From IMG/VR virus record IMGVR_UViG_2778261538_000003: 42,281 nucleotides of DNA, one strand, 5' to 3'. The notes under the pieces were generated by a model. The model made no database searches and was not told where the DNA came from. It worked only from the letters and a program-made list of their open reading frames with translations. Below, one piece after another: positions 23,208 through 37,110 of the stretch; position 1 is the first letter of the stretch, and the number at the start of each line of letters is the position of its first letter. This DNA comes from a virus. Lineage: Duplodnaviria > Heunggongvirae > Uroviricota > Caudoviricetes. The position numbers were made by a program, and so were the translations under genes.

Positions 23208-23732
23208 TTACCGGGACTGTTCTATTTGTCGGACACCAGCCAACTGGTTATTCGCCTTCTCGATGGCTGCCAACAATGGGTTAATCCACAGAACAGCCTG
23301 GCAATATGTCAACGTTCTGGTGGTAGTGGCACGATCACCGGCTGGGTCAATGTACCCGGAATCGGCGTGCAATGCGCTGGCGCGTAAACGGTTCGCGTAG
23401 TTGAGCAACCCGACAGCAATATCAGCAGGAACAGGGAAATCACAGTTCTTTTCACGGAGCAGAACCTCACGGTATTTGATGACTGTCTTCTCGTGACCGA
23501 TGTCGACCAGAGAATTTAATCGGCTTGCGTTTTCTGCTATCTGGTTAAAACGATTGAAGTTTAATGCCTGATTAGCTATCACTTTCCCTTGATATTCAGC
23601 TTCACCTTCCGCTTTATCAGCCCGCAACTTTTCTGCCTGATACTTGCTGTGGTAATGGTTTGCAGACCAGACGAGCGCCCCAAAGGCAGAGAAGAAAAAT
23701 GCCGCGATGACAATCTTATAAGTCAGCTTCAT
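23208..23732 (-). CDS. i-spanin Rz
   Basis: 174 aa with N-terminal TM helix and coiled-coil body; directly downstream of the endolysin. Confidence 0.8.
   Translation of the reverse strand: MKLTYKIVIAAFFFSAFGALVWSANHYHSKYQAEKLRADKAEGEAEYQGKVIANQALNFNRFNQIAENASRLNSLVDIGHEKTVIKYREVLLREKNCDFPVPADIAVGLLNYANRLRASALHADSGYIDPAGDRATTTRTLTYCQAVLWINPLLAAIEKANNQLAGVRQIEQSR
23309..23455 (-). CDS. o-spanin Rz1 (embedded in the +1 frame of Rz)
   Basis: Hand translation gives (V)KRTVISLFLLILLSGC-STTRTVYAPAHCTPIPGTLTQPVIVPLPPER: lipobox LLSGC and Pro-rich mature part; GTG start at 23455 or 23443, no ATG present. Confidence 0.55.
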   Translation of the reverse strand: MKRTVISLFLLILLSGCSTTRTVYAPAHCTPIPGTLTQPVIVPLPPER

Positions 23733-24192
23733 TTACCACCCCACCAGCATCTTTAAACCTGGAAATCAGGTCACCGATTTTATGTTCATACTGACCGTAA
23801 CCTGCACCAGGTAACGACGCCCAGATATTGCTGCAACGGTCGATTGCCTGACGAATATCGCCACGGTCAATCATCGGTAAAGCGCCACGCTCTTTAATCT
23901 GCTGCAGCGCCACAGCGTCCTGACTTTCTGGCGAAAAATCTTTCAGGCCAAGCTGCTTGCGGTAGGCATCCCACCAGCGTGAAAGAAGCTGATACCGGCC
24001 TGCGGCTGTTGATTTAAGCTTCGGGTTTAGCGTGACAAGTTTGCGAGGGTGATCGGAGTAATCAGTGAACAACTCACCTCCGACGATAACGTCATAACCG
24101 TGATTACGTGTCGGTTGTCGCCCGTTATCCGTTCCTTCTGACCATGCCACCATATCCAGGAAAGCTTTACGTTGGGAATTTAGTGTCTGCAT
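23716..24192 (-). CDS. endolysin, lambda R-type lytic transglycosylase
   Basis: Near-identical in long stretches to lambda R as recalled (NQRKAFLDM-AWSEGTDNGRQ-TRNHGYDVIVGGELFTDYSDHPRKLVTLNPKLKST-AGRYQLLSRWWDAYRKQLGLKDFSP). Confidence 0.92.
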   Translation of the reverse strand: MQTLNSQRKAFLDMVAWSEGTDNGRQPTRNHGYDVIVGGELFTDYSDHPRKLVTLNPKLKSTAAGRYQLLSRWWDAYRKQLGLKDFSPESQDAVALQQIKERGALPMIDRGDIRQAIDRCSNIWASLPGAGYGQYEHKIGDLISRFKDAGGVVNEADL

Positions 24193-24195
24193 GAA

Positions 24196-24537
24196 TTACT
24201 CCTTAGAGCCACCAAACTTGTTACCGATTACTCGCATTGCAGCCCCACGAATAGCATCGACACCGATCAGCCCAACACCACCACCAATGGCAACAGAAAG
24301 CGATTTAGGCCATCCGACATACTCAAGAGCGGATGCAAAAGTCAGCGTCAGAGCACCACAGAGCAAAATCTCAAGCGTTTTTCGTTTCCAGCCGCCGCCA
24401 CCGCCAAAATAGGCAATGCGCAAGCCAGCCATAACAATTGACATAACCACTGCGCCCAACGGCGTATCTCCACGCCACCAACTTTGTAAGAGTTCCAGTA
24501 AGTCAGGCCAGGAATGAGGAGCATTGTGCATTTTCAT
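24196..24537 (-). CDS. holin, lambda S-like with Met-Lys-Met dual start
   Basis: ATG-AAA-ATG at 24537-24529 preceded by GGAGG; the ORF-track start at 24555 lacks an SD. Predicted TM segments; upstream of the endolysin. Confidence 0.85.
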   Translation of the reverse strand: MKMHNAPHSWPDLLELLQSWWRGDTPLGAVVMSIVMAGLRIAYFGGGGGWKRKTLEILLCGALTLTFASALEYVGWPKSLSVAIGGGVGLIGVDAIRGAAMRVIGNKFGGSKE

Positions 24538-24638
24538 ACTTCCCACCTCCGCCATTACGGGGTGTTGTTGAAAGGCGGGCCCTGCGTATACGCCCGTAGG
24601 ATTGGGTTATGAGCCGTCCTTCGGTGGGCCCTGAATAC

Positions 24639-24662
24639 AAAAAAAAGTTCGCCATAGCGAAC
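24639..24662 (-). terminator. rho-independent terminator (GTTCGC-TATG-GCGAAC then T8 on minus strand)
   Basis: Perfect 6-bp stem with 4-nt loop followed by eight T on the transcribed minus strand; between Q and the holin. Confidence 0.6.
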
Positions 24663-24889
24663 CTTGTTAAATTTGTTAAAAAAGGAAGTTATTTAACATA
24701 ATGTACGTTATAGGAACCACACGATCCCCGCTCGCAATAGATTTGCGATGAAAGGCCTATTTAATCAACTTAAGTGGTCCAGAATGACGAAATTCGAGTG
24801 AATAAAAGGTGCATAAAAAAGGGCAAAAACTGCATAGCGTTTTTTCGCAGCGAAAGCCCTGTTTTATTAACTTTTCCCCAGAATGGGGC

Positions 24890-24916
24890 AATAAAAAAGG
24901 CCCCCTTGCGGAAGCC
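24890..24916 (-). terminator. rho-independent terminator, candidate tR'-like site
   Basis: Minus strand GGCTTCC-GCAA-GGGGGCC (two G-U pairs) followed by TTTTTTATT; about 80 nt downstream of a plausible late promoter. Confidence 0.5.
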
Positions 24917-25070
24917 TCTTCGTGATGAACTGTTTTCAACAGATATCAGGCTAATCGGCTTTTTGGAATTCCACAACTATTTTTTATCTTACCTTGATAC
25001 CTGAAGCCGTCAGGTGTTTACGGCAATCCTGAATACCATCTGATTCCCTTACGTGATTGATTACTGGATA

Positions 25071-25493
25071 TTATGCCGCCGGGCAGCTCCTTCGCAAAGT
25101 CCTGATAGCCTTAGGCTTTGACTGAACTGCTTGATCCATTTCCAGAACCACGTCCAGCATAGCCAGGCAGCCGTCGATAAATCCCTCTGCAGCCTGGAGC
25201 CTCTTCAGAACTTGAGTGTGTGATACGCCGAGCTTCACACCCATAGCCCTCACAGGCATCGCCTGGATGTAATGCCACTCAAGGAGCGTACACAGGTACG
25301 GATCTTTTTTCTTCAGGCAGTTCATAGCAGAGCTGATGATCAGACCGTCATTGTCACTGCACTTCAGCCGCCCGGCTTGCGTTGCAGGTAGCAGATTCTT
25401 AAATCCAGCGGAAACAGGTGGATAGTAGACACTGCAACCTTCGCTCGCAGCCCAGCCCCCCCATCGCTCTAAAACCAGTCGAATATCACGCAT
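25071..25493 (-). CDS. late gene antiterminator Q
   Basis: N-terminus MRDIRLVLERWGGWAA and C-terminal ...KRLQAAEGFIDGCLAMLDVVLEMD resemble QuuD-type Q proteins as recalled; immediately upstream of the lysis cassette. Confidence 0.8.
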   Translation of the reverse strand: MRDIRLVLERWGGWAASEGCSVYYPPVSAGFKNLLPATQAGRLKCSDNDGLIISSAMNCLKKKDPYLCTLLEWHYIQAMPVRAMGVKLGVSHTQVLKRLQAAEGFIDGCLAMLDVVLEMDQAVQSKPKAIRTLRRSCPAA

Positions 25494-25518
25494 AGCTCTG
25501 ACCTCTACGTTTTGCTAC

Positions 25519-25809
25519 TTACCGTTCATCTTTCATTTTGAGGTTAGAAAGATGTTTAAGCCGCTGGCAATACGCTTTCCAGTAAGCCTCAGAGTGCATC
25601 GGGTGCTCGATATCGCTATACAGCCATACACAGTCGTCGCGCTGAGTTACCGGCGGTGGCGCCAACACATCTCGAGTGGCCTGCGTTAGTGCTCTTTTGA
25701 AGAAAAAAGCCTCCCCTAAGGGCTGGTAGTCTCTGTTGAATGCTTCCCAAGCCCCCTCAGCTGTTTTGCGGATACCGTAAGGCATACATTGGCGGAATAT
25801 CTTTGACAT
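25519..25809 (-). CDS. hypothetical protein (nin-region equivalent)
   Basis: 96-aa ORF between the origin repeats and Q. Confidence 0.4.
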   Translation of the reverse strand: MSKIFRQCMPYGIRKTAEGAWEAFNRDYQPLGEAFFFKRALTQATRDVLAPPPVTQRDDCVWLYSDIEHPMHSEAYWKAYCQRLKHLSNLKMKDER

Positions 25810-25858
25810 CGTCGTATCCTCATTTAGTTATTTGCTAATTTTTTCAAGTTAATTTCCG

Positions 25859-26122
25859 GGTGACGGCTAGGTGACGCGTAATTACATATCCGTCACCTGC
25901 TGCAAAGCGCGCCATATAAGGCCTGAAGATGTTTTAGGTGACAGGTGACGGTTGATTTTAGTTCTCTATATATAAGCGATCGTATAATACCTAAAATACA
26001 CACTATCGCGTATATAGTTTTAAATTCTGCCGTCACCTGTCACCTTTAGCACATTTCCCATTGTTTTATATATACTTTTTAAGGTGACGCTTAAGCGTTT
26101 TGCCGTCACCTAGCCGTCACCT
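25859..26122. repeat. iteron array, putative phage origin of replication
   Basis: Ten copies of GGTGAC(G/A)G in both orientations, arranged as nested inverted pairs around an AT-rich centre near 25990 (25859-25878 vs 26103-26122; 25890-25899 vs 26082-26090; 25936-25951 vs 26030-26045). Confidence 0.7.
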
Positions 26123-26124
26123 TT

Positions 26125-28386
26125 TTACAATCCAGATTGCAAAATTTCGCAAGATTTATATATTTCGCGCAATTCTTCGTTGCTGAAATCGTTATTTTTT
26201 ACAAGAATCCAAATCCTATATACAAACCCGTCAATTTTTACGCGTACGGGTTCCCGCTTTGTTCTTTCTTTCAAAATGCGAGTAATATGCTTCTGGTTAA
26301 TTTCTACATCCATTCCTGCTTCTGCCAGTATTGCGTTAACAATTTGTTGATAAGTCATTGCTGGCACAGGCGGATTATCCAGGATTTCAATAAGAGCAGC
26401 CTCCACATCGCTCTTATTGCTTTCAATCATCAGAAGGCGTTCTTTCGTCTCGGGGGCGCGCTGCCAGTTAAAGCGAGACAGGTCAACGCCCATCAGATAC
26501 CAGTACACCTGGGCGATAAAGTCGCTGTCGCTTAGCGCACCGTACAGGCTGGCGTAATGCTCTTCAGTTGCGGCGAAGTCAGGGCCCCCCAGCACAGCGA
26601 TACGTCGGTCTTCCTCTGGCAGCGCCAGCGCATCAAAGTGGTTGGTGTAGAACAGAAAGCCGGTGTATATATCCATCGTTTTTTTGCTGCCATATTTGCG
26701 GTTCACTTCAAACCGTGGTTCTGTCAGCACGTCACGGATCTTATCGTTCACCTCATACCGCTTATCATTTTCGCGCACCTCGTCAATGGTGCATAGAAGC
26801 GTATTGTACAGATAGTCATGGAACTGGTTATCGCACAGGATCTTCATGCGAGTACGAGCACAGTTCCACGGACCAAGCACGCGCTCCATTAACTGGCTGA
26901 CCCATCCTCTGCCCGTACCATGTGCGGAAGCCACATGCAGAATAGAAATCGGGCATCGACGCTCCGGACGCTGAACCATCCACCCCAGACGGGCGATGAA
27001 AAACTCGCGCTGCCAGGCATCAGGTACCAGATACGCCATATGATTAAGGAACGTGGACACCTTACTTGTATCCGCTGTACGTGGATGCTCAGGCATATAA
27101 AATTCGTTTATCTCAAACCGCCCGTCGAAACGCTCGATAATACGTCCCGCACCGGGCTTATAGCCTGTCGTCTCAGCAATCTTCTTATGCCGATGCTCTA
27201 TCCACCGTTTGGTTGCGGGAGTTGGTTGCCCTTTCCCTTCTGGCGGGAACTGGTAAGGCGCCATCAGGTTTTTGAACGACTTCATATCCATCATGCACTG
27301 ATATGGCGGTCGGCTAAGATCACATACCTGGTCACCCTCGATGACGTAGATAAAGCGTTCCAGAAAATGAGCTGTCATATCTGTATTAATATCGGTAAAT
27401 TCAGGCTTATCGCCATCTTCAACCACCGTGAGATCTTCGAACAGGGATTGCGTATAGCCGTAGCCTTCCAGCCAGTCGGCATCAGTAAGCCCCGCATCGG
27501 TGTTGTGCATGCTTTTAAAATGTCCCTGTTCAAATCCCCCCGTCCCTTTTGGGAAATACTTAATGGATGTTTCGCTGCAACCGTTGCTGTATTCTGACTC
27601 ATCCCGAAACGGTTTCAGATTGCGGGAACCATCAGAGCTGACTGACAGAGTCCACCCGTTCGCGTCAAGCCAGTCGGCGACATCATCTGTCGCGGAAGGA
27701 TCAACACAGGAAAGATCACGCTGACGTCCTGCACCTGCGGTATAGCTGTCTTTCACGGGTAAGTTATCCGCCAGACGCTGCCACAGGCTTTCGAGCTGTT
27801 CAGATGTAATTTTCAGAGGTTCGCCGGGCAGACCGCAGTCCCACTGAATACGTTCGCCTGCCGGATGGGTACCACAAGCCACAAACTGCTGGCCCTTAGC
27901 GAGCAGCTCTATTTGTTTGTTTTCGCCTTCCAGGCGGTGACCACGTTTACGGTAGTCGCCATCAACAGCAATCAGGTACAGGCATTTATGACTGTCAGCC
28001 CGCCAGCGACGTGGCGGAAGTTCCCCCAGGCATGACAGGATAATATTGCGTACGATCTCCTGCATCCCGGCGTCATTGATATCGCAGTCCAGAGCCACCA
28101 CCCCGTCGCCAGTACGAACGCAAATACCGTAATCGGGTTCGTTCGACCACCGGGCAAAATCGTTTTCCGTAACAACATAGTTAGCCCAGTCGGGGATACC
28201 AACAACCTTACGTTGGCCATTGTAGCGACTGGGGGTTTTGCCGAAATTATGAGACAGCTTGCTATTAGGCGACAGTTCTGCACAGGGATTGGACACCACA
28301 GGTAAAAGCCTGTCTGTCATCCCCAACACCAGATCGAAGTGGAACCACTCATCGGGCGTAGCTCCCCATGGTTTGTTATCAGACAT
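26125..28386 (-). CDS. replication protein with N-terminal Prim-Pol (AEP-type primase-polymerase) domain and C-terminal primase/NTPase-like region
   Basis: Motifs GDGVVALDCDIND, SHKCLYLIAV and IELLAKGQQFVACGTHPAG fit the three Prim-Pol motifs; 753 aa; next to the iteron array. Confidence 0.65.
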   Translation of the reverse strand: MSDNKPWGATPDEWFHFDLVLGMTDRLLPVVSNPCAELSPNSKLSHNFGKTPSRYNGQRKVVGIPDWANYVVTENDFARWSNEPDYGICVRTGDGVVALDCDINDAGMQEIVRNIILSCLGELPPRRWRADSHKCLYLIAVDGDYRKRGHRLEGENKQIELLAKGQQFVACGTHPAGERIQWDCGLPGEPLKITSEQLESLWQRLADNLPVKDSYTAGAGRQRDLSCVDPSATDDVADWLDANGWTLSVSSDGSRNLKPFRDESEYSNGCSETSIKYFPKGTGGFEQGHFKSMHNTDAGLTDADWLEGYGYTQSLFEDLTVVEDGDKPEFTDINTDMTAHFLERFIYVIEGDQVCDLSRPPYQCMMDMKSFKNLMAPYQFPPEGKGQPTPATKRWIEHRHKKIAETTGYKPGAGRIIERFDGRFEINEFYMPEHPRTADTSKVSTFLNHMAYLVPDAWQREFFIARLGWMVQRPERRCPISILHVASAHGTGRGWVSQLMERVLGPWNCARTRMKILCDNQFHDYLYNTLLCTIDEVRENDKRYEVNDKIRDVLTEPRFEVNRKYGSKKTMDIYTGFLFYTNHFDALALPEEDRRIAVLGGPDFAATEEHYASLYGALSDSDFIAQVYWYLMGVDLSRFNWQRAPETKERLLMIESNKSDVEAALIEILDNPPVPAMTYQQIVNAILAEAGMDVEINQKHITRILKERTKREPVRVKIDGFVYRIWILVKNNDFSNEELREIYKSCEILQSGL

Positions 28387-36348: not shown

Positions 36349-37110
36349 ATGCAGGAACTAACTGAAATGCCGATCAACTATCCATACCCGAGAGAATCTT
36401 TTCCTGACTTTTTGAGGGAGTGTGGGTTCACCAATTTTTCCCACGAACAGCGTGAGACTTATGACTGCTATCGTTTAACGAATGGCGTAATTGTTAACCT
36501 TTACACCACCCGGACCATTCAGTTTCAAGGGAACCCTCAAGAACGTCCCAATGTTGAAACTGCAATAATGTCCCATTTAGGAACGCCCCCCACGGCAACA
36601 CCACTAGCCGTAGAACAGCCATCTGAGCTTCCCAAAAAGATATTCATTGTTCACGGCCATGACCATACTGCAAAGGAACAACTTGAGCTAATCCTTCATA
36701 AACTTGGATTACCAGACCATTTCATTTTGCAGAATACGGGAGGGACTGGACTCACCATTATTGAAGAGCTTGAACGTGAAATTGGGCAAGGACAAACTGC
36801 TACTCGTTTCGGGATTGTTCTTTTGACACCTGATGATATGGGATACTCAAAGCGCGCCGGTGAAGCAGAAATCCAACCCCGCGCAAGACAGAACGTTGTA
36901 CTCGAGATGGGTATGCTTCTTTCGTCCTTAGGGCGCAGCAATGTAGCAATCCTTCAGAAACAGCACCTAGAACAGCCTTCTGATGCTAACGGGATTTTGT
37001 ATCTGAATTTCAACGACCATGTACGTGAAACAGTTCCTCGTCTAGTGCAACGGTTACAAAATTCTGGTTTCGAATTTACACAAGCTCAAATAGCTAACGC
37101 TTCCTCGTAA
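36349..37110 (+). CDS. TIR-like domain protein (COG4271-type) with unknown N-terminal domain
   Basis: C-terminal half carries KIFIVHGHD ... FGIVLLTPDD ... RARQNVVLEMGML ... VAIL, matching the TIR-like nucleotide-binding fold as recalled; own terminator downstream. Confidence 0.6.
   Translation: MQELTEMPINYPYPRESFPDFLRECGFTNFSHEQRETYDCYRLTNGVIVNLYTTRTIQFQGNPQERPNVETAIMSHLGTPPTATPLAVEQPSELPKKIFIVHGHDHTAKEQLELILHKLGLPDHFILQNTGGTGLTIIEELEREIGQGQTATRFGIVLLTPDDMGYSKRAGEAEIQPRARQNVVLEMGMLLSSLGRSNVAILQKQHLEQPSDANGILYLNFNDHVRETVPRLVQRLQNSGFEFTQAQIANASS

What the first reader, a model, noticed from the sequence alone, without database searches (positions are those of the whole stretch)
24560..25070. 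ORF-poor 500-bp late regulatory region with two tandem terminators between Q and the holin
Two good minus-strand terminators (24890-24916 and 24639-24662) lie about 230 bp apart with several hairpins between them and no convincing ORF. The first fits a tR'-like site for a short Q-modified leader. The interval between the two could hold a small RNA or a decayed moron; this is the slot where lambdoid phages carry tRNAs or toxin genes.
Basis: partly seen in the sequence, partly recalled or inferred. Interest (0 to 1): 0.4.

Follow-up and report, generated by a model that had tools for sequence, protein, structure and literature searches.

The report
Plasmid-type Xer recombination site in phage
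The gene-free stretch between the phage's late-gene switch (Q) and its lysis genes does have two real transcription terminators, and the 200 bases between them are a copy of the psi/cer-type site that small plasmids use, with the host's XerC/XerD enzymes, to cut joined-up circles back into single copies; this had not been noted in tailed phages in the papers I could search.

Summary
T1 (24917-24891) and T2 (24665-24638) are genuine minus-strand hairpin-plus-U terminators, and the interval has no credible ORF, no tRNA and no Rfam family.

The ~205 nt between the terminators (24875-24671) is one copy of an element found in more than 120 viral contigs, about 25 phage records and 146 of 5426 E. 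coli genomes. It sits in at least four late-operon contexts, always in the same orientation.

Its 3' end is a 28-bp XerC/XerD core, GGTTCCTATAA-CGTACA-TTATGTTAAAT. The XerD arm is identical to that of E. coli dif.

On the XerC side lie ~155 bp of conserved accessory sequence. It carries an 11-bp-spaced TATKCA repeat 101.5 bp from the core centre; the ArcA site of pSC101 psi lies at 102 bp.

A profile of the element matches psi (E=1.4e-10) and matches a 13-kb plasmid end to end (E=1.4e-20).

The best reading is a psi/cer-type multimer-resolution site for the circular phage replicon, shielded from transcription by the two terminators.

A conserved promoter-like site on the opposite strand suggests an Rcd-like RNA; this is unproven.

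The "decayed moron" is real but lies upstream of T1, as the remnant of a 113-aa gene.

Whether T1 is tR' remains open.

The parts
25071..25493 (-). Q antiterminator gene (140 aa), Q21/933W family
   Evidence: PF06530 E=8.3e-41 over the full profile; annotated 'antitermination protein Q' in the near-identical phage ON470579.
25070..25097 (-). Sigma70-like promoter match TTGCGA-16-CATAAT overlapping the Q stop codon. It is a candidate pR', or the promoter of the deleted phiTE_015-family gene.
   Evidence: Only promoter-like site on this strand in 23500-26500. It is kept in the 140-aa Q allele loci and absent from the 136-aa and 144-aa allele loci. Function is inferred only.
24984..25039 (-). Remnant of a 113-aa 'phiTE_015 family' gene: RBS and ATG (25039) followed by an out-of-frame 3' tail, left by a 286-bp deletion
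   Evidence: Alignment with E. coli EL361 (L002 2552-2893, WP_001174014.1), where the ORF is intact; coordinates.
24891..24917 (-). Terminator T1 (hairpin plus T6)
   Evidence: Fold -17.1 kcal/mol, z=-3.9. Present directly after Q in all three Q alleles with compensatory stem changes.
24671..24875 (-). Whole conserved element E: a psi/cer-type Xer site (accessory sequences + core + 3' block)
   Evidence: The pattern ACGCTATGCA-N13-TTTATGCAC hits more than 120 viral contigs and 12 genuine hits among species-representative genomes, 11 labelled Enterobacterales. nhmmer profile against pSC101 psi E=1.4e-10 and against a 13-kb Citrobacter plasmid E=1.4e-20, end to end.
24719..24875 (-). Accessory sequences on the XerC side (~155 bp), A/T-tract rich
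   Evidence: Conserved blocks in a 26-sequence alignment. Family lengths are 196/206/236 nt, so the indels are 10-bp quantised. AA/TT periodicity peaks at 11.5-12 bp.
24797..24839 (-). Three TATKCA boxes (24839-24830, 24817-24808, 24806-24797). The last two form TGCAC-N5-ATTCA, the candidate accessory-protein site.
   Evidence: Box centre to core centre is 101.5 bp, against 102 bp for the psi ArcA site and 121 bp for the cer ARG box. The half-sites resemble plasmid ARG boxes TGCAT-N4-ATGCA/ATTCA, but the spacer is one bp longer, and the match to the ARG consensus is no better than in shuffles.
24691..24718 (-). 28-bp Xer core: XerC arm GGTTCCTATAA (24718-24708), central region CGTACA (24707-24702), XerD arm TTATGTTAAAT (24701-24691)
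   Evidence: E. coli dif is GGTGCGCATAA-TGTATA-TTATGTTAAAT (PMC2731167); psi and cer cores were read from L149 and L148. TAA-N6-TTATGTTAAAT is unique in the window, 0.02 expected by chance. Across 130 copies the XerD arm is invariant while the XerC arm and central region vary.
24673..24702 (+). Promoter-like site on the opposite strand, TTGTTA-18-CATAAT. The -10 overlaps the XerD arm and the site reads into the accessory sequences (candidate Pcer/Rcd analogue).
   Evidence: Flagged independently in the window, in a class-3 locus and in Klebsiella phage Mulock. The -35 is absent in the terS-E-terL class. A similarly placed match exists in pSC101 psi. Not shown to be active.
24813..24861 (.). 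Hairpin at the distal edge of the accessory region (CAGGGC...GCCC), with an A run on one side and a T run on the other. It could end the opposite-strand transcript.
   Evidence: An opposite-strand terminator-like site was called at the equivalent place in class 2. The A run 5' of the hairpin is present in all classes. Weak evidence.
24638..24665 (-). Terminator T2 (hairpin plus T8)
   Evidence: z=-4.2. Different sequences with the same form sit at this place in other Q-holin loci. Absent where the element abuts a start codon.
24556..24637 (-). Conserved untranslated leader in front of the holin gene, with two CAGGGCCC repeats; function unknown
   Evidence: Conserved between the window and divergent loci L041 and L016.
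24196..24555 (-). Holin gene (lambda S family), first late gene
   Evidence: PF05106 E=1.2e-27.

Best explanation
The core of the finding is a psi/cer-type multimer-resolution site carried by a tailed temperate phage.

Proposed mechanism:
- On the supercoiled circular form of the phage genome, host XerC and XerD bind the 28-bp core (24718-24691).
- The ~155 bp on the XerC side wraps around host PepA plus a second accessory protein bound at the TATKCA repeat, ~102 bp from the core.
- This interwrapped synapse forms only between two directly repeated copies on one molecule. Circular dimers or multimers made by homologous recombination (or two tandem prophage copies) are therefore resolved to monomers, and never the reverse.
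- T1 upstream and T2 downstream keep early and leaky transcription out of the site. Antiterminated late transcription reads through both terminators and the site into the holin gene.

Shown here: the sequence identity of the core, homology of the element to psi and to plasmid sites, its architecture, its wide conservation, and the reality of the terminators.

Inferred: Xer/PepA dependence, the identity of the second accessory protein, the stage of the life cycle at which it acts, and the insulating role of the terminators.
For: 1. Core site.
   - A text search for the invariant 13-mer returned only dif/Xer papers.
   - E. coli dif is GGTGCGCATAATGTATATTATGTTAAAT; the window has GGTTCCTATAA-CGTACA-TTATGTTAAAT.
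   - Many family members have GGTGCGCGCAA-CGTCCA-TTATGTTAAAT, against psi GGTGCGCGCAA-GATCCA-TTATGTTAAAC.
2. Variation in 130 copies follows the published rules for Xer sites (rules).
   - The XerD arm is invariant.
   - The XerC arm varies, but position 5 and the inner TAA are kept.
   - The 6-bp central region is variable.
3. Published plasmid Xer sites include GGTGCCGATAACGTCCATTATGTTAAAT. This is one central base away from a core found 13 times in the phage family.
4. Profile homology: psi E=1.4e-10 over the core plus ~70 nt of accessory DNA; a 13-kb plasmid E=1.4e-20 over profile positions 6-202.
5. Architecture.
   - The conserved DNA lies only on the XerC side.
   - The repeat sits 101.5 bp from the core centre, against 102 bp for the psi ArcA site.
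   - Indels come in steps of 10 bp (91/101/131).
   - A/T tracts are periodic, as described for cer.
6. The window phage and Klebsiella phage Mulock share the element and the virion module but no early or regulatory gene. This fits a site served by host proteins.
7. There is one copy per phage record.
8. The window phage has its own Prim-Pol primase, PolA and helicase, so it replicates as an autonomous circle. Relatives occur as a 77-kb circular plasmid and as 37-42 kb extrachromosomal records.
Against: - No experiment: Xer binding and recombination were not tested.
- The second accessory-protein site is unresolved. The box matches the ARG consensus no better than shuffled sequence, its half-site spacing is one bp longer than in plasmid ARG boxes, and its sequence is not the ArcA TGTTA repeat.
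- The window's XerC arm differs from dif at 3 of 11 positions.
- The phage has its own integrase and is integrated here, so the need for dimer resolution is an inference. Phages that package from concatemers do not obviously need monomers.
- In the terS-E-terL and terL-E-portal contexts the site is not insulated by terminators.
- The constant orientation relative to late genes is not required for recombination and is unexplained.
Confidence: 0.75

Rival explanations
1. First reader's model. The whole interval is a lambda-like late leader: pR' just after Q, T1 as tR', a second terminator, and between them a small RNA or decayed moron.
For: - Q is a PF06530 protein.
- A sigma70-like site overlaps its stop codon.
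- T1 always follows Q.
- Both terminators are real.
- A deleted gene exists nearby.
Against: - The conserved content between T1 and T2 is a Xer site that also occurs in phages without this Q and in mid-operon positions.
- The gene remnant is upstream of T1.
- I saw no -10-like pause element and no direct-repeat Q-binding element of the Q21 type (TGAGCA x2) by eye.
- In two Q alleles only ~25 nt separate the stop codon from T1.
Confidence: 0.3
2. The element is primarily an autonomous small-RNA gene on the opposite strand: promoter 24673-24702, an RNA of ~155 nt, ending near 24860. It would be a moron expressed from the prophage, and the dif similarity would be incidental.
For: - The promoter-like TTGTTA-18-CATAAT is found in three contexts.
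- A hairpin plus U run lies at the far edge.
- The edges of conservation coincide with the -35 and the U run.
- The orientation is always opposite to the late genes.
Against: - The -10 is part of the XerD arm, so its invariance is already explained.
- The -35 is missing in ~45 of 127 loci (class 2).
- Folding is not better than shuffled sequence and there is no Rfam family.
- The full-length and psi homologies and the 10-bp-quantised indels point to a DNA-level role.
- An Rcd-like RNA nested in the site remains compatible with the main explanation.
Confidence: 0.12
3. The element is the late promoter and Q-loading region (qut), with TATGTT as the -10 and T2 as tR'.
For: - The element ends 25-90 nt before the next gene's start in every context.
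- T2-like terminators follow it in most Q-holin loci.
- In some copies a direct GTGCCGAT repeat lies just upstream.
Against: - There is no conserved -35.
- The same element sits between terS and terL, and between terL and portal, in phages with other or no PF06530 Q.
- Mulock and the window share no regulator, so a constitutive sense promoter would express virion or lysis genes in lysogens.
- In L004-type loci no terminator separates the element from the holin.
- The 'repeat' is the XerC arm plus proximal accessory DNA, which psi-like plasmid sites also have.
Confidence: 0.05
4. The element is a packaging (pac/cos) site recognised by terminase.
For: - It is often next to terS or terL.
- It has phased repeats and a bipartite layout.
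- Its orientation is fixed relative to the head genes.
Against: - It is associated with at least three unrelated small-terminase families and with large terminases only 35% identical.
- In the window it lies 1.4 kb from terS.
- Truncated copies end at scattered points, not at one cut site.
- The right half is a Xer core.
Confidence: 0.03
5. The element is an IMEX-type attachment site used for Xer-mediated integration at the host dif, or a functionless relic of plasmid-phage recombination.
For: The XerD arm is identical to dif. Filamentous and other non-tailed phages integrate this way.
Against: - The site is internal to integrated prophages that carry their own tyrosine integrase.
- The central region differs from dif and varies.
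- Accessory sequences impose intramolecular selectivity.
- Against a relic: the XerD arm is invariant and the blocks are conserved across more than 120 contigs and four contexts.
Confidence: 0.05

Closest known systems
psi, the multimer-resolution site of plasmid pSC101 (XerC/XerD + PepA + ArcA)
   Same: - 28-bp core with a 6-bp central region. Many family members have an identical XerC arm (GGTGCGCGCAA) and a central region of the form xxTCCA or xxxxCA.
- The XerD arm differs only in its last base.
- Conserved accessory DNA lies on the XerC side only.
- The proximal ~70 nt are alignable (CGAGTG-N10-GGTGCG).
- An 11-bp-spaced direct repeat is centred 101.5 bp from the core centre, against 102 bp in psi.
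   Different: - The repeat is TATKCA, not the ArcA TGTTA/TAACA motif.
- The distal accessory DNA is not alignable with psi.
- It is carried by 36-45 kb tailed temperate phages inside or at the head of the late operon, not by a small plasmid.
- An extra conserved block (GTTTTTTAACAAAT) lies beyond the XerD arm.
- In the window it is flanked by terminators.
cer of ColE1 and related ArgR-type sites, with the Pcer promoter and Rcd RNA
   Same: - ~180-200 bp of accessory DNA next to the XerC arm.
- Phased A/T tracts.
- TGCA(T/C)...AT(G/T)CA half-sites like plasmid ARG boxes.
- Constant orientation within its replicon family.
- A promoter-like site overlapping the Xer core that reads into the accessory DNA.
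   Different: - The central region is 6 bp, not 8 bp.
- The profile does not hit ColE1 cer.
- The box spacer is one bp longer, and the box sits 101 rather than 121 bp from the core.
- No evidence that an Rcd-like RNA is made.
dif, the chromosomal XerC/XerD site
   Same: Identical XerD arm TTATGTTAAAT, 28-bp layout, 8 of 11 XerC-arm positions.
   Different: dif has no accessory sequences, depends on FtsK and sits at the replication terminus. This site has accessory DNA and sits in a prophage.
loxP/Cre of phage P1 and the attP sites of Xer-exploiting (IMEX) phages such as CTXphi, VGJphi and TLCphi
   Same: Phage-borne tyrosine-recombinase sites. P1 uses loxP to keep its circular prophage monomeric, and IMEX phages borrow host XerCD.
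   Different: - P1 encodes its own recombinase.
- IMEX sites lack accessory sequences, serve integration at dif, and are known from filamentous and other non-tailed phages.
- Here a tailed phage with its own integrase carries a plasmid-type resolution site.
Lambda-type late regulatory cassette (Q, pR', qut, tR', 6S/StxS-like leader RNA)
   Same: Q gene followed by an intrinsic terminator and then the lysis genes. A short terminated transcript is possible.
   Different: No pause element or Q-binding repeat was identified, T1 is very close to Q in two alleles, and a recombination site lies in the leader.

Membership tests
psi/cer-type (accessory-sequence-dependent) Xer multimer-resolution sites | 28-30 bp core: 11-bp XerC arm, 6-8 bp central region, 11-bp XerD arm, with the inner arm bases conserved and palindromic | tested here: met
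   The core is GGTTCCTATAA-CGTACA-TTATGTTAAAT at 24718-24691. dif, psi and cer were read for comparison. Near-identical cores are in a published plasmid list.
psi/cer-type (accessory-sequence-dependent) Xer multimer-resolution sites | XerD arm better conserved than the XerC arm; central region not conserved | tested here: met
   Over 36 distinct cores from 130 copies, information per column is 2.0 bits (XerD arm), 1.28 (XerC arm) and 1.10 (central). That scan required TTATGTTAAA, so its 2.0 bits is partly built in. The arm is also invariant in the alignment of copies picked by the left-hand pattern only, apart from L006, which has a 2-nt deletion.
psi/cer-type (accessory-sequence-dependent) Xer multimer-resolution sites | ~180-200 bp of accessory sequence adjacent to the XerC arm only | tested here: met
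   ~155 bp (about 185 bp with the core) of block-wise conserved DNA lies on the XerC side. Conservation stops ~25 nt beyond the XerD arm.
psi/cer-type (accessory-sequence-dependent) Xer multimer-resolution sites | ArgR or ArcA binding site at a defined distance (~100-120 bp) from the core | tested here: inconclusive
   A repeat sits at the right place (101.5 bp, against 102 in psi and 121 in cer). The match to the ARG consensus is at shuffle level, the spacer is one bp longer than in plasmid ARG boxes, and the sequence is not an ArcA motif.
psi/cer-type (accessory-sequence-dependent) Xer multimer-resolution sites | Phased A/T tracts and helical-phase dependence between the accessory site and the core | tested here: met
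   Box-to-core distances are 91, 101 and 131 bp in 36, 59 and 1 distinct sequences. AA/TT periodicity peaks at 11.5-12 bp. The sequences are related, so the statistics are inflated.
psi/cer-type (accessory-sequence-dependent) Xer multimer-resolution sites | Sequence homology to an experimentally characterised member | tested here: met
   nhmmer profile against pSC101 psi: E=1.4e-10 in a 16-kb search space. No hit to ColE1 cer.
psi/cer-type (accessory-sequence-dependent) Xer multimer-resolution sites | Recombination that depends on XerC, XerD and PepA, is independent of FtsK, and acts only on direct repeats in one molecule | not testable with these tools
   Needs the two-site plasmid deletion assay in xerC, xerD, pepA, arcA, argR and ftsK mutants.
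cer-type sites with the Rcd checkpoint RNA | A promoter within the site that drives a short RNA across the accessory region | tested here: inconclusive
   A 9/12 sigma70 match overlaps the XerD arm in the window, class 3 and Mulock. It lacks a -35 in class 2. There is no structure signal and no expression data.
Lambda-type Q antitermination cassette | Q gene directly upstream of the late genes | tested here: met
   PF06530 Q at 25493-25071; holin at 24555-24196.
Lambda-type Q antitermination cassette | Constitutive pR' with a Q-binding element and a -10-like pause element in the first ~25 transcribed bases | tested here: inconclusive
   There is one 9/12 promoter match at 25097-25070. By inspection I found no pause element and no direct-repeat Q-binding element (the reference QBE is). 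The promoter is absent in other Q alleles.
Lambda-type Q antitermination cassette | Intrinsic terminator (tR') between pR' and the late genes | tested here: met
   T1 and T2.
tRNA or known small-RNA genes in the Q-to-lysis slot | tRNA fold or a match to a curated RNA family | tested here: not met
   ARAGORN finds 0 genes in the window. The best Rfam hit scores 26 bits against a gathering score of 50 and covers only the T1 hairpin.
IMEX (Xer-mediated integrating elements) | The dif-like site is used as attP, so the integrated element is flanked by hybrid sites at dif | tested here: not met
   The site is intact and internal in integrated prophages that carry a tyrosine integrase.

The most novel reading that the evidence does not exclude
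Tailed temperate phages of Enterobacterales have taken over the complete plasmid dimer-control module, meaning both the recombination site and an Rcd-like checkpoint.

When circular phage genomes multimerise, or when two tandem prophage copies synapse, XerCD would leave the core and the opposite-strand promoter (24673-24702) would fire. The resulting ~155-nt RNA would act on the host, as Rcd does through tryptophanase and indole.

The same site would also let host XerCD/PepA excise one copy from tandem polylysogens without the phage integrase.

The accessory protein bound at the TATKCA repeat could be neither ArgR nor ArcA, which would define a third type of accessory-dependent Xer site.
Probability: 0.25. 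Interest if true: 0.75.

Novelty: new member of a known kind. Interest (0 to 1): 0.6.

Why it matters
Accessory-sequence-dependent Xer sites are described as a hallmark of small multicopy plasmids. A recent survey of enterobacterial replicons found that mid-sized replicons (30-100 kb) mostly lack them and use their own recombinases.

Here the same kind of site is conserved in many ~36-45 kb tailed temperate phages that also encode an integrase. This suggests that dimer or multimer control of the circular replicative or plasmid-like form is under selection in phages thought of as purely integrative. It also suggests that host XerCD/PepA are unrecognised host factors for them.

The finding gives:
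- a concrete, testable function to a widespread unannotated intergenic block, which some GenBank records currently cover with a spurious 'hypothetical protein';
- a marker for phage-plasmid exchange;
- a caution for prophage engineering and polylysogen stability.

It also shows that an 'ORF-poor regulatory region' can hide a DNA-level site rather than an RNA.

Tried and rejected
- tRNA and Rfam searches: nothing.
- Structured RNA, on either strand:
  - The RNAalifold consensus was weak.
  - MFE z-scores against dinucleotide shuffles averaged -0.8 and -1.0.
  - No stem was common to all classes.
- Late promoter or Q-loading site: rejected. There is no conserved -35, the element occurs in mid-operon positions, and the phages share no regulator.
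- pac/cos site: rejected on the diversity of terminase subunits and the lack of a common truncation point. The EKP1 record breaking inside the element is explained by the convention of opening a record just upstream of terL.
- Motifs considered from memory of their consensus sequences, none of which fitted or was universal: replication origin/DnaA boxes, sigma54/28/32/E promoters, BoxA, an IHF site, a 7-codon mini-ORF (MLNxxxF*) and a 15-31-codon ORF across the TATGCA boxes.
- ARG-box scoring: no better than shuffles.
- Searching for pR' by eye in three Q alleles and downstream of T2: no convincing site.
- Literature: no paper on vB_EcoM-606R2 and none linking cer/psi-type sites to tailed phages. 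Subscription-only literature was not searchable.
Full report
**What is at the coordinates**

All late genes in this part of the window are on the minus strand. In order they are:
- a 140-aa Q antiterminator of the Q21/933W family (25493-25071; PF06530, E=8e-41);
- a 515-bp gap;
- a lambda-family holin (24555-24196; PF05106);
- endolysin, Rz/Rz1, and the small and large terminase subunits.

The window is almost identical to Escherichia phage vB_EcoM-606R2 and to prophages in 146 of 5426 complete E. coli genomes.

- T1 (24917-24891) folds at -17.1 kcal/mol (z=-3.9).
- T2 (24665-24638) folds at -10.4 kcal/mol (z=-4.2).
- Six other T1 sequences from related loci keep the hairpin plus U run through compensating changes. 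Two other T2 sequences do the same.

No ORF in the gap is credible. There is no tRNA and no Rfam family. The hairpins between the terminators are no more stable than shuffled sequence.

**The decayed gene is real but lies upstream of T1**

Most E. coli relatives are 286 bp longer between the Q stop codon and T1. The extra DNA completes a 113-aa ORF that RefSeq calls a 'phiTE_015 family protein'.

The window keeps only its ribosome-binding site, its ATG (25039) and an out-of-frame 3' tail running to 24984.

This gene, or its remnant, co-occurs with the 140-aa Q allele and with the only sigma70-like site on this strand, TTGCGA-16-CATAAT at 25097-25070, which overlaps the Q stop codon. Promoter, gene and T1 may therefore have been a small expression unit. 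In the window that unit would now yield only a ~150-170-nt non-coding transcript.

In two other Q alleles (31% and 41% identical), T1 begins ~25 nt after the stop codon and I could not find a promoter.

T1 could therefore be tR', or the end of the early/Q transcript, or both. I cannot decide between these from sequence.

**The stretch between the terminators is a widespread element**

Relatives with different Q alleles share the DNA from T1 onward. A 67-nt piece of it also turned up between terS and terL in an unrelated E. coli prophage, and in a Yersinia phage.

The pattern ACGCTATGCA-N13-TTTATGCAC then hit:
- 12 genuine hits among species-representative genomes, 11 of them labelled Enterobacterales.

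BLAST with class variants added Klebsiella, Hafnia and other phage records.

The element is 196, 206 or 236 nt long. It occurs in at least four contexts:
- Q-T1-element-(T2)-holin, or another first late gene;
- terS-element-terL;
- terL-element-portal (lambdoid Klebsiella phages such as Mulock);
- primase-HTH regulator-element-structural genes of a podovirus-like group.

It is always co-oriented with the downstream late genes.

The window phage and Mulock share the whole virion module but not one early or regulatory gene. So the element needs no shared phage protein.

**Explanations I tested first**

I tested four explanations before the identification:
- a structured RNA;
- a late promoter or Q-loading site;
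- a packaging site;
- an autonomous opposite-strand small-RNA gene.

The RNA tests were weak on both strands.

The promoter idea fails on three counts: there is no -35, the element sits in mid-operon positions, and there is no common regulator.

The packaging idea fails because the neighbouring small terminases belong to at least three unrelated families.

The opposite-strand transcription unit had some support.
- A TTGTTA-18-CATAAT match was called independently in three contexts.
- A hairpin plus U run lies at the far edge.
- However, the -35 is missing in the large terS-element-terL class.

**Identification**

A full-text search for the invariant 13-mer CATTATGTTAAAT returned only papers on dif and Xer recombination. 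E. coli dif is GGTGCGCATAA-TGTATA-TTATGTTAAAT.

The right end of the element is a 28-bp site of exactly this form.

| Site | XerC arm | Central | XerD arm |
|---|---|---|---|
| Window (24718-24691) | GGTTCCTATAA | CGTACA | TTATGTTAAAT |
| Many family members | GGTGCGCGCAA | CGTCCA | TTATGTTAAAT |
| pSC101 psi | GGTGCGCGCAA | GATCCA | TTATGTTAAAC |
| ColE1 cer | GGTGCGTACAA | TTAAGGGA | TTATGGTAAAT |

Across 130 copies (36 distinct cores) the XerD arm never varies. The XerC arm varies except at position 5 and the inner TAA. The two middle bases of the central region are almost free. This is the published pattern for Xer sites.

Cores one base away from a common phage type are in the published list of plasmid Xer sites with psi-like accessory sequences.

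A profile built from 26 non-redundant copies matches:
- psi with E=1.4e-10, over the core plus ~70 nt of accessory DNA;
- an intergenic region of a 13-kb Citrobacter plasmid, end to end, with E=1.4e-20.

**Architecture**

Plasmid sites of this kind have ~180-200 bp of accessory sequence on the XerC side. This DNA is bound by PepA plus ArgR (cer) or ArcA (psi) at a defined position. It carries phased A/T tracts, and the sites keep a constant orientation within a plasmid family. In cer an internal promoter, Pcer, makes the Rcd RNA.

The phage element has:
- ~155 bp of conserved DNA on the XerC side only;
- A/T periodicity;
- indels in steps of 10 bp, giving box-to-core distances of 91, 101 and 131 bp;
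- an 11-bp-spaced TATKCA repeat centred 101.5 bp from the core centre.

The psi ArcA repeat is centred at 102 bp and the cer ARG box at 121 bp.

The repeat's half-sites, TGCA(C)...AT(G/T)CA, look like plasmid ARG boxes (TGCAT-N4-ATGCA/ATTCA). But the spacer is one base longer, and the match to the ARG consensus is no better than chance. It is not an ArcA motif either. The second accessory protein is therefore unresolved.

The opposite-strand promoter-like site overlaps the XerD arm and points into the accessory DNA. pSC101 psi has a similarly placed match. This is a possible Pcer/Rcd analogue. It also accounts for the extra conserved block beyond the XerD arm (24683-24671), which recombination itself would not need. 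It is not shown to be active.

**How it most likely works**

The window phage is an integrating temperate phage that also carries its own replication proteins:
- CI-like repressor;
- tyrosine integrase;
- Prim-Pol primase;
- family-A DNA polymerase;
- SNF2-type helicase.

It therefore spends part of its life as a supercoiled circle.

Relatives are found as a 77-kb circular plasmid and as 37-42 kb extrachromosomal records.

I infer that host XerCD, PepA and a second factor use this site to resolve circular multimers of the phage genome, and possibly tandem prophages, into monomers.

I also infer that T1 and T2 keep early and leaky transcription out of the site until antiterminated late transcription runs through it.

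Shown here: sequence identity, homology, architecture, conservation, and the terminators.

Inferred: activity, protein requirements, timing, and insulation.

**Comparison with what is known, and novelty**

The element passes the sequence-level membership tests for psi/cer-type sites. The ArgR/ArcA site is left inconclusive, and the biochemical tests could not be run.

It is not a dif-type site, because it has accessory sequences. It is not an IMEX attachment site, because it is internal to prophages that have their own integrase.

Three literature searches found no report of such sites in tailed phages. Known phage uses of Xer concern filamentous and other non-tailed phages, and P1 uses its own Cre/loxP. 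I could not search subscription-only literature.

I rate it a new member of a known kind, found in an unexpected class of replicon.

**Verdict**

- Observation: confirmed.
- Interpretation: partly supported.
- Main content of the interval: a plasmid-type Xer multimer-resolution site (confidence 0.75).
- Interest: 0.6.

Noticed in passing
window 36349-37110 (+): A 253-aa ORF in the early-left region has a CAP12/Pycsar-effector TIR domain (PF10137, E=2.9e-31). It may be a prophage-carried defence gene.
   Followed up: no
window 28650-28605 (-), upstream of the cro-like gene: The likely early promoter reads TTGCTG-17-TAAATT, followed 5 nt later by the -10-like hexamer TATAGA. This resembles the -10 / pause-element pair of lambda pR' (as I recall that sequence). 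It raises the idea that Q loads at the early promoter and that late genes are expressed by read-through of T1 and T2.
   Followed up: partly
window 24556-24637 (-): The ~80-nt leader between T2 and the holin start is conserved in divergent loci (L041, L016) and contains two CAGGGCCC repeats. Its function is unexplained.
   Followed up: no
L001 4087-4293 (ON470579 URC08712.1), about window 24775-24985 (+): The GenBank record annotates a 68-aa hypothetical protein on the opposite strand, across T1 and part of the accessory region. Nothing supports it as a gene, and the RefSeq E. coli records leave the region unannotated.
   Followed up: partly
L124, L020, L098 (IMG/VR contigs): Copies of the element are interrupted by mobile DNA. 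L124 has what I recognise as an IS26 end in the accessory region. L020 and L098 have an insertion starting TGTCAAGGCTCAATTG immediately before the XerC arm.
   Followed up: no
L006 about 2655 (E. coli EC2001): This copy has a 2-nt deletion at the junction of the central region and the XerD arm (CATT--TGTTAAAT), so it is probably an inactivated site.
   Followed up: no
L152 (Enterobacter sp. E76 plasmid pE76_003, 76.9 kb, circular) and L150 (K. pneumoniae 'plasmid p5', 37.4 kb): pE76_003 carries replication protein-Q-element-holin-lysozyme. Ten Klebsiella 37-42 kb 'plasmid' records match the core, and the one I inspected (p5) is a Mulock-like phage genome with the element between terL and portal. 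These phages may persist or be recovered extrachromosomally.
   Followed up: partly
L129/L131 (Elizabethkingia phage EKP1) and L132 (Chryseobacterium sp. 18061): These two records are assigned to Flavobacteriia hosts. They carry the enterobacterial-type element, with the dif-type XerD arm of E. coli, and the same terL. The host assignment or the purity of the cultures looks doubtful.
   Followed up: no
L026, L107, L115: In these loci a convergently oriented gene, with a hairpin that looks like its terminator, is inserted directly after the element. This is a moron-like insertion at the same boundary.
   Followed up: no
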